A DNA stretch of 64,000 bases, taken from contig CM082585.2 of assembly GCA_040954595.2 (NCBI GenBank), positions 8,139,404 through 8,203,403 of the forward strand. The letters are read 5' to 3'. The position numbers and the translations under genes were made by a program. Of the stretch, positions 52,601 to 55,600 are shown in pieces. This DNA is from Balanoglossus misakiensis. Taxonomy: Eukaryota; Animalia; Hemichordata. Within the stretch, counting starts at the first letter, position 1, and every line of letters begins with the position of its first letter. The notes under the pieces were generated by a model. It saw nothing but the letters and a program-made list of their open reading frames with translations, was not told where the DNA came from and made no database searches.

Positions 52601-55600
52601 AGCTTAACTAATAAAAAAAACTTTACCTTGAAGTTGACAACCATCACACATATCGTCATTACAATGGATCCGAATGTGAATAAACCAAATTGCTGCGGGG
52701 AAAAAAATACAAAAAAATTCAAGATTTGCCAAAAACTGGTAGCGTATTGGCCATATTGAATCATATTGCGAAAATTCTAAATAGCCATACATATGCTTAA
52801 ACACAATGTCCTAACCTTACATTATACAACATTTGAATGACATTGGTTGGGACATAACTGAGTAATGACTTCATACTTCGACAGACAGAGAGACAGATGG
52901 ACAGACAGACAGACGGGCGGTCTAACAAATCAAGATCTACTGCATTTTAATGTACGAGACTCACCTGGTTGTTTGGCAATAGTGAGATGTCATCACCAAA
53001 CAATAACATTGTGCCAAAGAAGAAACAGACTGAATGATAGAGACCTGTAATGATAACAATATGAACAGAGAAATGAAATACTTAAAATTAGAATTTGAAA
53101 GCATTCTCAAAAACATGACACAACTATCAGTCACAATGAGTCACACAAGCTACGTTTTCAAACTGTGACATATGTAAGTGGTCACATTTTTCACAAATGT
53201 TATCTGATTATGTTTTTAAATGGCACATGTGTTCCTGTATACAATGTATTACAATAGCAGTGTAGACATGAGGCTGTTGGTACTTGGTTTCTTGAGTAAG
53301 ATGACATGTTGCGTGTGCAAATCATCTGTGGAACATAAGATTCTAACGTCTACAAAATTGTGATGCTGACATGAATCCACTAGGACGCTGGTCGTGCAGT
53401 TATGTTTCCTCAGTGCTGATTATGTTTGTATGTTCTATGTTCCCACAGCATGATTCCTTTGTGCCGATTATGTTTGTGTTCATATGTTCCCACAACCGTG
53501 TATTCACACCAGTGATGATGTTCATGTAGTGATGTTCTTACATGTAAAACAGAGAGAGCAATGCCGTGGGACTGTGTCACAAATGGTGTTCACAATTTTT
53601 CTAAATGTTCGACAGCTCTGACACGGTGACGTTCAATGCTTATGACTGCAGTGCCACGGATGAACGACAGATTGTACCCATCTGTCACACGTCTGTTACT
53701 AGCGACCGGTCTTACCTAGCGATATCCAATACACATACTCCCCCAAAGTTAAGGCTTTATTGTGAGTGATTTGTCGATAGAGGTGCGGGTTAGCTAACAG
53801 CGTTTTGGCTTTGTAGTTTTGCTCAAAGACGCCGTATATCAAGATGGGTAGGGCAGTAAAGGTCATGTTGTAGAAGGTTAGTAAGAATTCCTCATACACT
53901 GTCTGCAACGTGAAACATTAGGGTAATCGCGTTAGTTGTGTGTGTGTGCAAATCAGAGTCACATGTAACAGAAAACAATGTTTGATGTCAATACTAGATA
54001 CAGAAAACACAGACGCTGCAAATGTGCTTCAAATAAATGTTGTGAATTTTATAAGGAATATTGTGACAGATTAATCCATCAGTAAATTTCTCACCATTAT
54101 CTTACAAAACAAAATAATGTAATAAATAATGGGTATGCATGACACAGAATACCACTTTGAAACAGCTTTTTTATCAAAGAAAATAAGTACTTGACATCAA
54201 ACATTGCCTTCTAATAATGTTCTCATATCAAAGAAAAATATCATAGTTACCTAAACAAATCCAGTAGCAATACTGCCACCATCGTAAGCAATAGTTGCGT
54301 GTTATATCCTTGTATAGCTCAGGATAGTTTAGCAACGCTCTCGCGCTGAGAGTTTTTTCAAAAATACCATAGATGAGAATGGGCAATGATGTGAAGAGTA
54401 CATTGTAAAATGTTAAGTAAAAACTATGATACAGTGTCTGTGAACAAAGCAGAGAACACAAAAAAATGCAACACACAGTTATGGATGATTGACAGGTGAA
54501 AGATACACATGAACCAATATGTTGGTACATTGTATCTAATGAATAAATGTGTTGATACATTGTGTCTAACAAACAAACTTCTTGATACATTATAACTACT
54601 GAACCAATTTTTGATACTTTGTATCTAATGAATGAATTTGTTGTTACTTTGTATATAATAATGTATTTGCAAAACAAATTGCATGTCACACAAAGAAATA
54701 GTGATTGTGCACCTTTAGTAGTGACACAGTGTTGGACAAAAATCCCATGATTTGAATGGAGATGTGCTTGCACATTGAAACAAATGTGAGGAATTCAAAG
54801 GAGACAAATACAACTCTGGGAGCTTCAATCAGCATTGGTTACATAAGCAAGGCATTTTGGTAGTGATGACTTCATGACATTACACACAAGAAAGCAAATC
54901 ATCATATTTTTTGAGATCCCACAGACAATTTCCCACAACCATATGAAAATGGAGTCATGAATGATTCACTTACTTGCTGTGAAAAAGCACTGAAGAAACA
55001 GTAATAAAATTGCGGAGTAATCATTGCAAAGTTCTGAAAGAGATGGAAAAACAGATTAATTAGAAGAAAGTTATTTCAACTACATAAGGAGAGTCATAGT
55101 TTAGTCATAAGTTTCAAATAGTAGCCATATACCACAGGGAACTCCATTGGGAAAAGGATGTAATTACCTTGTAGAAAAAGTACTGGACTAGTGTGGTCAC
55201 CCTGATGTAAAACCAATGACCGTGAACTAATAAGGCCTTCTGTAGAAATCTAAACCGACCAAATGCATAGTCACTACAACGCACTGCTTGGCGACCTTCT
55301 TTGCCCATGATACCTGGAATAATAATAATGGTAATAATCATCATCATCATCATCATCATCATCATCATCATCATCATCATCATCATCATCATCATCATCA
55401 TCATCATCATCCTCATCATCATCATCATCATCATCATCATCCTCATCATCATCATCACCACCACCACCACCACCACCATCATCATCATCATATTATAACA
55501 ACAGAATTAGTTACACCTGATATCAATACCGATAAAGTAACAGTCACTCTGTCTTTCTGTGTGTATGTCCTTCCCACCCAAAGTAACTCACCTAGACCCA

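What the first reader, a model, noticed from the sequence alone, without database searches (positions are those of the whole stretch)
53716..54437. Mutually exclusive duplicated TM6 exons in an ATP11 flippase
Seen: two paralogous 187-nt exons with intact splice sites and the same phases. Including both, or neither, shifts the frame. They differ in the exoplasmic loop (LYHSFY versus VYEEFL), in TM6 (NVLFTS versus NMTFTA) and after it (FEK versus FEQ). Known: TM6 lines the lipid groove of P4-ATPases with TM2/TM4. I know of C-terminal, but not TM6, alternative splicing in vertebrate ATP11. Inference: one gene switches lipid specificity or CDC50 interaction by splicing.
Basis: partly seen in the sequence, partly recalled or inferred. 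Interest (0 to 1): 0.75.

Follow-up and report, generated by a model that had tools for sequence, protein, structure and literature searches.

The report
Swappable TM6 exons in acorn-worm flippase
An acorn-worm lipid-flippase gene (ATP11) carries two diverged copies of the exon for a helix that lines the lipid path, a related species is annotated with one copy or the other in each transcript, and the swap likely tunes the pump rather than changing which lipid class it moves.

Summary
Observation confirmed. An acorn-worm ATP11 gene, close to Ptychodera flava, has two 187-nt paralogous exons, A (54437-54251) and B (53902-53716). Both have intact AG/GT ends and the same phases; including both or neither gives an early stop. 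RefSeq P. flava isoforms carry A (7 of 15) or B (8 of 15), never both. Both copies are conserved between species: 27/27 and 26/27 identical over the TM6 part. The duplication probably predates the Ptychoderidae/Spengelidae split (AU p=0.002, 62 columns). No second version appeared in 182 listed isoforms from 20 non-hemichordate clusters. New here: the intron between A and B holds a 23-bp RNA stem (-30.6 kcal/mol, 0 of 300 shuffles), a likely splicing control element. The specificity-switch idea is weakened, because the mapped head-group and core residues of TM6 are identical in A and B. One acyl-pocket position (Val/Met), the outer-loop charge and the TM6-7 loop differ. Best reading: splicing tunes a PS/PE flippase. 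I obtained no RNA reads and no orthologous DNA. Exon duplication is a known mechanism, but I found no report of it in a P4-ATPase membrane core.

The parts
54251..54437 (-). Alternative exon A (187 nt, phase 0 to 1): end of TM5-6 loop, TM6, TM6-7 loop, start of TM7
   Evidence: 57/62 aa identical to the P. flava A form, 50/62 to Glandiceps
53716..53902 (-). Alternative exon B (187 nt, phase 0 to 1), paralog of A
   Evidence: 50/62 aa identical to the P. flava B form (26/27 over positions 1-27)
53903..54250 (-). Intervening intron, 348 nt, GT-AG
54186..54213 (-). 5' arm of the intronic RNA stem (core 54213-54191; a further 4-5 bp after a one-base bulge)
   Evidence: (I1)
53969..53995 (-). 3' arm of the intronic RNA stem (core 53991-53969)
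53931..53938 (-). Predicted branch-point motif of exon B (CTAAC type, predicted branch A at 53932); AG-free zone of 91 nt before the acceptor
   Evidence: sequence; predicted only
54974..55033 (-). Constitutive exon upstream (end of TM5), ends in phase 0
52965..53044 (-). Constitutive exon downstream (TM7), starts in phase 1
51147..63547 (-). Body of the ATP11 gene (27 exons counting both A and B); the first coding exon was not found in the window
   Evidence: 86% aa identity to P. flava over the 869 aa before the cluster
43430..50025 (-). Region of alternative C-terminal exons of the same gene (about 50025-49630, 47313-47245, 47111-47071, 46475-46372, 43629-43440; ends approximate)
   Evidence: tblastn with P. 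flava and Glandiceps isoform tails, sequence

Best explanation
This acorn-worm ATP11 flippase gene holds two diverged, intact copies of its TM6 exon; the spliced message likely uses one or the other, and the swap likely tunes a PS/PE flippase (lipid entry, acyl-chain fit, turnover) rather than switching its head-group class. Shown: the anatomy, the frame logic, annotation of both forms in P. flava, conservation of both copies, and an unusually strong 23-bp stem in the intervening intron. Inferred, step 1 (about 0.6): the stem loops out about 200 nt and pulls A's donor from 319 to about 74 nt from B's predicted branch point. This disfavours joining A to B or brings regulators together, and nonsense-mediated decay would remove A+B and skip products, which stop early. 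Inferred, step 2 (about 0.5): the two proteins keep the same head-group contacts but differ in three places. These are the charge at the outer mouth (His-Ser in A, Glu-Glu in B), one acyl-pocket residue (Val or Met), and a rebuilt TM6-7 loop that in homologs moves with the P-domain and touches the CDC50 tail and the C-terminal helix. Combined with the alternative C-tails, this would give tissue- or compartment-specific versions of one pump.
For: Frame test. P. flava RefSeq: 7 of 15 isoforms A, 8 of 15 B, none both; for most tails both forms are listed. Between species A is 57/62 and B 50/62 identical, against 745/869 and 125/140 for the flanking exons. B's 12 changes avoid all 14 family-conserved columns (Fisher p=0.03) and 11 of 12 lie after position 27 (p=0.006). 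A versus B: pS 0.80 (saturated), pN 0.32. 15 A/B differences are fixed in both species, 7 of them in positions 1-17; Glu5 and Tyr30 (B) and Leu14 and Tyr38 (A) occur in 0 of 82 distinct non-hemichordate segments. Identical in A and B: positions 8, 9, 12, 16, 21, which map to Dnf2 L1265/T1266, ATP8A1 N882, ATP8B1 T993 and ATP8A1 L891. Position 13 maps to ATP8A1 V883, an acyl-pocket residue, and Dnf2 L1270. The TM6-7 loop moves with the P-domain and docks on the amphipathic helix in Drs2. Stem: strongest helix in any of the 26 introns tested (next -21.4, in a GAT repeat), 0 of 300 intron shuffles and 0 of 200 cluster shuffles as strong, mean pair probability 0.94, weaker on the opposite strand (-21.1).
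Against: No reads were seen; use of both exons rests on RefSeq models of a relative, and that such models need transcript support is recalled, not checked. Glandiceps talaboti lists only A in 6 of 6 isoforms, so B is lost or unannotated there. B changes faster than A between species (12 versus 5 of 62; p=0.12). 11 of the 15 fixed differences have both residues somewhere among other ATP11s, so part of the divergence may be drift within tolerated limits. Mutating Dnf2 L1270 impaired GlcCer selection, so position 13 could affect head-group choice. 74 nt is above the 50-60 nt steric threshold. Conservation of the stem could not be tested, and a stronger inverted repeat of unknown origin lies at about 45238-45380, so such repeats do arise in this gene's introns.
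Confidence: 0.5

Rival explanations
1. Head-group specificity switch: A and B transport different lipid classes or have strongly different PS/PE/PC preferences.
For: TM6 forms the binding pocket with TM1, TM2 and TM4. Small indirect changes reshape the ATP11C pocket (Q79E admits PC). Position 13 maps to Dnf2 L1270, which affects GlcCer selection. Seven fixed differences lie in the outer loop and outer TM6, and B has a net -2 outer loop seen in 0 of 82 other ATP11 segments. All 22 acorn-worm proteins have Ser at TM4 Pro-4, where 286 of 286 other ATP11 proteins with the motif have Asn, so this lineage's pocket is already altered.
Against: The invariant Asn, the LT motif, Thr16 and Leu21 are identical in A and B, and the TM1 Gln and the TM4 motif are shared. 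Residues of the exoplasmic cavity in TM1/TM4 are described as the primary head-group determinants. Ser at Pro-4 is compatible with PS transport.
Confidence: 0.18
2. The swap matters mainly for CDC50 pairing, folding, trafficking or C-tail regulation, through the TM6-7 loop and the outer loop, and not for lipid handling.
For: 20 of 28 A/B differences lie in positions 28-62. The CDC50a N-tail contacts the M6-7 loop, and the Cdc50 ectodomain contacts all lumenal loops except TM1-2. The gene also has many alternative C-tails.
Against: That loop is also the least conserved part of each copy between species (11 of B's 12 changes and all 5 of A's), while the TM6 part is nearly invariant within each copy. 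No complex was modelled.
Confidence: 0.2
3. The two exons are functionally near-equivalent; both are kept only because each is used in some tissue and must stay a working TM6, and the differences are drift.
For: Most differences fall in columns that vary across ATP11s, and only 1 of 28 hits a family-conserved column. Glandiceps is annotated with A only.
Against: Copy-specific residues are fixed between species, and several A-specific ones (His4, Val13, Leu14, Lys28, Tyr38) are shared with Glandiceps. Four fixed residues are absent from 82 other segments.
Confidence: 0.1
4. Exon B is a dead or dying copy, or an assembly artefact.
For: No RNA evidence was seen directly. B's pyrimidine tract is weak.
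Against: Open frame and intact splice sites with saturated synonymous divergence from A. An orthologous B is annotated in an independent P. flava assembly, and B groups with P. flava B at 99/97 and 100/96 support.
Confidence: 0.02

Closest known systems
Vertebrate ATP11A/B/C (class 6 P4-ATPases) and ATP11C-a/-b/-c splice variants
   Same: Closest solved relative is ATP11C (phmmer 964 bits against 761 for ATP8A1; top Foldseek hit 7vsh). C-terminal alternative splicing occurs in both.
   Different: The described variants differ only in the C-tail, which sets localisation and regulation (PMC11775268 passages). No second TM6 version was found in the listed vertebrate isoforms. TM4 Pro-4 is Ser here and Asn there.
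Arthropod Na+/K+-ATPase alpha subunit tandem mutually exclusive exons (barnacle exon 11a/11b; four copies in Drosophila)
   Same: Tandem-duplicated, mutually exclusive exons in a P-type ATPase, with two to four copies in several arthropods (PMC3793950 passages). That the Drosophila copies encode part of M6 and the M6-M7 loop is recalled from Palladino 2003, which I did not read.
   Different: An ion pump (P2C), in another phylum, with highly similar copies; an independent origin is inferred. The function of the copies is reported as unresolved.
Dscam exon 17 pair (steric hindrance combined with RNA secondary structure)
   Same: Two-exon cluster controlled by intronic RNA pairing. The listed functional pairings in such clusters are 13-22 bp over 350-14,000 nt (PMC6027157 table); this stem is 23 bp over about 200 nt.
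   Different: Only the title of Yue et al. 2013 was seen (paper not held). No shared docking site with competing selectors was established here, and the stem is untested.
FGFR2 IIIb/IIIc pair
   Same: A two-exon pair with nonsense-mediated decay as back-up (title in reference list). A stem in the intervening intron (IAS2/ISAR) is recalled; search found 0 papers.
   Different: Ligand-binding Ig domain of a receptor, not a transporter helix.

Membership tests
ATP11 / class 6 P4-ATPase | P4-ATPase domains and motifs (DKTGT, DGET, PISL; PhoLip_ATPase_N/C) | tested here: met
ATP11 / class 6 P4-ATPase | Closer to ATP11 than to ATP8, ATP9 or ATP10/Dnf types | tested here: met
   P. flava ortholog: phmmer ATP11C 964 bits, ATP8A1 761, Drs2 724, ATP8B1 664; best hits named ATPase IF/ATP11B. 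No full-family tree was built.
ATP11 / class 6 P4-ATPase | PS-type pocket residues (TM1 Gln, TM4 Pro-4 Asn, TM6 Asn) | tested here: inconclusive
   TM1 Gln and TM6 Asn present; Pro-4 is Ser in 22 of 22 acorn-worm proteins. Asn or Ser both occur in PS flippases.
ATP11 / class 6 P4-ATPase | CDC50-dependent PS/PE flipping | not testable with these tools
   needs an assay
Tandem-duplicated mutually exclusive exon pair | Adjacent homologous exons of equal length and phase with intact splice sites | tested here: met
Tandem-duplicated mutually exclusive exon pair | Each exon is included in transcripts, never together | tested here: inconclusive
   Met in RefSeq models of P. flava (7 A, 8 B, 0 both of 15); no reads were available for direct proof
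Tandem-duplicated mutually exclusive exon pair | Both copies under purifying selection | tested here: met
   protein-level conservation and A/B pS 0.80 versus pN 0.32; interspecies dN/dS not computed (no orthologous DNA)
Steric-hindrance MXE (short 5' splice site to branch point) | Linear distance under about 50-60 nt | tested here: not met
   319 nt to the best canonical branch motif; about 74 nt only if the stem forms. Weaker branch-like motifs lie nearer the donor and the real branch point is unmapped. Threshold.
Docking-site/selector MXE (competing RNA structures) | One docking site pairing alternatively with a selector for each exon, conserved across species | tested here: inconclusive
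   The two stem arms prefer each other by 13 kcal/mol or more over any other partner; weaker cross-intron helices (-23.0, -21.1) do not form a clear docking pattern. Conservation was not testable.
Spliceosome-incompatibility MXE (U2/U12) | Mixed AT-AC / GT-AG intron ends around the pair | tested here: not met
   all three introns of the cluster are GT-AG

The most novel reading that the evidence does not exclude
Acorn worms switch the lipid preference of their ATP11 by splicing. After losing the canonical TM4 Asn they duplicated the TM6 exon more than 370 million years ago, and an intronic RNA stem now chooses between two entry-site designs. This would be the first natural splice-encoded substrate switch in a P4-ATPase and a ready-made pair for finding what TM6 contributes to lipid choice.
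Probability: 0.18. Interest if true: 0.8.

Novelty: new variant of a known kind. Interest (0 to 1): 0.5.

Why it matters
What surrounds the invariant TM6 Asn and how it shapes lipid choice in P4-ATPases is still open (PMC12424579 passages). Here evolution supplies two long-maintained versions of the TM5-6 loop, TM6 and TM6-7 loop in an otherwise identical pump, a clean paired test of that module. In the papers I could search, flippase splicing was described for C-tails only. If the same module is also swapped in the arthropod Na/K pump (recalled), this is a recurrent way of diversifying P-type ATPases. The intronic stem gives a sharp, testable control element. The limits are a narrow lineage, both forms already sitting undescribed in RefSeq, and no functional data.

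Tried and rejected
No whole genome was held, so copies of the stem arms could be sought only in the 64-kb window; none was found. No RNA holder was listed; this is no evidence either way. The database search with exon B alone gave no hit among 7 candidates; only cluster representatives are searched and the P. flava representative is A-type. One metagenome scan with exon B gave 284 pattern matches and 0 confirmed. Three look-ups in earlier scan findings returned nothing. My first motif anchor missed many orthologs and was replaced by ungapped placement. Apparent within-cluster variants were rejected as second exons: Ostrea P0238 is a separately named record, and Apostichopus P0167 differs by 2 aa and comes from another assembly. 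A recalled role for ATP8B1 S994 (position 17) had 0 mentions in the preprint read and was dropped. Secondary long-range helices in the cluster exceed shuffles by rank, but single shuffles reach -23.0 in 5 of 200 and -21.1 in 21 of 200, so I give them little weight. U12 incompatibility was rejected. No complex with CDC50 was predicted because no acorn-worm CDC50 sequence was at hand. Two papers were not held. No supplements were read; the contact figures in the supplements of the structure preprints may bear on the residue mapping.

Full report
Observation. The minus strand carries two 187-nt exons, A at 54437-54251 and B at 53902-53716, each flanked by AG and GT and open for 62 codons plus one base. 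They share 34 of 62 residues and 106 of 187 bases, and both match Pfam PhoLip_ATPase_C at profile positions 60-120. I rebuilt the gene from 63547 to 51147 using P. flava proteins. With A alone or B alone the frame is open for 1071 aa. With both, a stop falls three codons into B; with neither, 37 codons after the junction. Both stops lie upstream of several introns, so by established knowledge they would be NMD targets. No third copy exists in the window.

Organism and family. Exon A's best hits are ATP11-type proteins of Ptychodera flava (92%), Glandiceps talaboti (81%) and Saccoglossus kowalevskii (68%). The window's protein is 86% identical to P. flava before the cluster, so this is an acorn worm in or near Ptychoderidae. 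The closest solved structure to the P. flava ortholog is ATP11C by sequence and by fold. An AlphaFold model of the P. flava B isoform (mean pLDDT 73) places the exon, residues 883-944, over the end of the TM5-6 loop, TM6 with its central break, two short cytosolic helices and the first turns of TM7.

Are both used? No genome and no sequencing runs were available, so I have no reads. The P. flava RefSeq cluster has 15 isoforms: 7 with the A segment, 8 with the B segment, none with both or neither. That such variant models need transcript support is recalled, not checked. Glandiceps has A in 6 of 6 listed isoforms. The single Saccoglossus model is labelled low quality and its segment is intermediate (42/62 to A, 37/62 to B).

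Selection and age. Between the window and P. flava, A is 57/62 and B 50/62 identical; over positions 1-27 they are 27/27 and 26/27. B's 12 changes avoid all 14 family-conserved columns (p=0.03) and 11 of them fall after position 27 (p=0.006). A against B shows pS 0.80 (saturated) and pN 0.32. In trees of the 62-column segment, A groups with Glandiceps (98/94 and 97/97) and B groups with P. flava B. Forcing the four ptychoderid-type copies into one clade is rejected (AU p=0.002); adding Glandiceps to them is not (p=0.25). The duplication therefore probably predates the Ptychoderidae/Spengelidae split, given as more than 370 mya (PMC11175523, passages), and its order relative to Saccoglossus is unresolved. 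Caveats: few columns, possible convergence, and the groups were named after I had seen the first tree.

Distribution. I looked up 20 non-hemichordate clusters covering echinoderms, amphioxus, molluscs, a nemertean, arthropods and vertebrates. Of 189 listed proteins, 182 contain the segment and 7 are fragments without it. No species showed two alternative versions, apart from a separately named Ostrea record and a 2-aa variant from another Apostichopus assembly. Listing was partial for five clusters (11 of 13, 15 of 23, 15 of 16, 15 of 98, 15 of 1141), and annotation can miss an exon.

What differs. Ungapped matches give exon position p = Dnf2 1257+p, Dnf1 1214+p, Drs2 1038+p and ATP8B1 977+p; ATP8A1 was mapped by residue identity. 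Identical in A and B: position 12, the Asn that binds the lipid phosphate (ATP8A1 N882; 10.1101/666321 passages; PMC12424579 passages); positions 8-9, the Dnf2 LT motif (10.1101/373712 section 8); position 16, ATP8B1 T993 of the core water site (10.1101/2023.04.12.536557 passages); and position 21, ATP8A1 L891. Position 13 differs (Val in A, Met in B, Ile in 73 of 82 other distinct segments). It equals ATP8A1 V883 of the acyl-chain pocket and Dnf2 L1270, whose mutation impaired GlcCer selection. Fifteen A/B differences are fixed in both species, seven in positions 1-17. B's outer loop is net -2, against -1 or 0 in all 82 other segments. Most differences (20 of 28) lie from the TM6-7 loop onward. 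That loop contacts the CDC50a N-tail in ATP8A1 and moves with the P-domain towards the C-terminal amphipathic helix in Drs2 (10.1101/606061 passages). It is also where each copy drifts most between species. Separately, TM4 Pro-4 is Ser in 22 of 22 acorn-worm proteins and Asn in 286 of 286 other fetched ATP11 proteins with the motif (4 lacked the motif); this is shared by both forms.

How exclusivity may be enforced. All three introns are GT-AG, and the linear distance from A's donor to B's predicted branch point is 319 nt, so neither U12 incompatibility nor a plain short intron explains it. The intervening intron holds an uninterrupted 23-bp helix, arms 54213-54191 and 53991-53969, at -30.6 kcal/mol. 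It is the strongest in the 26 introns tested and is matched by 0 of 300 intron shuffles and 0 of 200 shuffles of the 2069-nt cluster; the whole intron folds at z=-2.2. Its non-Watson-Crick pairs are G-U on the transcribed strand, and the opposite strand gives only -21.1. Mean pair probability is 0.94 at 37 C. Closing it leaves about 74 nt, still above the 50-60 nt steric limit cited in PMC7969005 and PMC13762713 (passages); flanking pairings shorten it further in the ensemble but are uncertain. Against a function: among 732 sliding windows of 348 nt one other place scored higher, an inverted repeat near 45238-45380 with a neighbour at -29.6, and conservation could not be tested. I put a splicing role at about 0.6.

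Literature. Searches for mutually exclusive exons with ATP11 (6 papers), with P4-ATPase (7 papers, 6 listed) and with hemichordate (5 papers) showed nothing on this case in titles and abstract openings; I saw these as listings only. A 2025 review describes C-terminal ATP11C variants and no TM variant in the passages containing 'splic' or 'isoform' (PMC11775268). Tandem mutually exclusive exons are known in the arthropod Na/K-ATPase (PMC3793950 passages); their M6 to M6-M7 position is recalled. Dscam exon 17 (title only) and FGFR2 (title and recall) are the splicing analogues; PMC6027157 and PMC6071210 were seen as passages, as were PMC12723151 and 10.1101/2020.06.24.169771. The library lacks most subscription papers.

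Verdict. The exon pair is real and very probably a functional mutually exclusive pair (about 0.9). The best functional reading is tuning of a PS/PE flippase (0.5), ahead of CDC50/trafficking effects (0.2), a head-group switch (0.18) and near-equivalence (0.1). It is a new variant of a known kind, interest 0.5.

Noticed in passing
window 59063-59144 (-), TM4 exon: TM4 Pro-4, the PS-contacting Asn of ATP11C (N352), is Ser in the window and in 22 of 22 acorn-worm ATP11 proteins, against Asn in 286 of 286 other fetched ATP11 proteins with the motif.
   Followed up: partly
window 43430-50025 (-): At least five alternative C-terminal exons conserved with P. flava and partly with Glandiceps. Two of them (47313-47245 and 46475-46372) begin with near-identical codons and never co-occur in the listed isoforms, suggesting a second mutually exclusive pair.
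   Followed up: partly
window 45069-45380: Long inverted repeat (about 143 nt, 33-bp perfect stem, -64.7 kcal/mol) with a second 23-nt inverted pair beside it, in an intron among the C-tail exons; a transposon remnant or a splicing structure.
   Followed up: no
window 55000-54986 with 53417-53403; 54485-54470 with 53504-53489 or 54945-54932: Weaker long-range helices across the exon cluster (-23.0, -21.1, -15.5 kcal/mol); one segment just upstream of exon A's acceptor has two alternative partners.
   Followed up: partly
window 11818-37300 (-): A neighbouring very large extracellular-protein gene: discoidin-like, right-handed beta-helix, CUB, EGF, IPT/TIG and cadherin domains, with a 2451-codon open frame (19170-11818) containing a 120-nt Thr/Ser/Val-rich repeat of about 17 copies.
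   Followed up: partly
window 69-10850: Satellite array of an 88-nt unit, about 123 copies, 99% match.
   Followed up: no
window 54509-54659 and 53402-53494: Small degenerate tandem repeats (30-nt unit x5; 48-nt unit x2) in the introns flanking the exon pair.
   Followed up: no
P0238 (Ostrea edulis XP_056006394.1): A second oyster ATP11-like record with a diverged TM6 segment, named apart from the isoform series; possibly a local gene duplicate.
   Followed up: no
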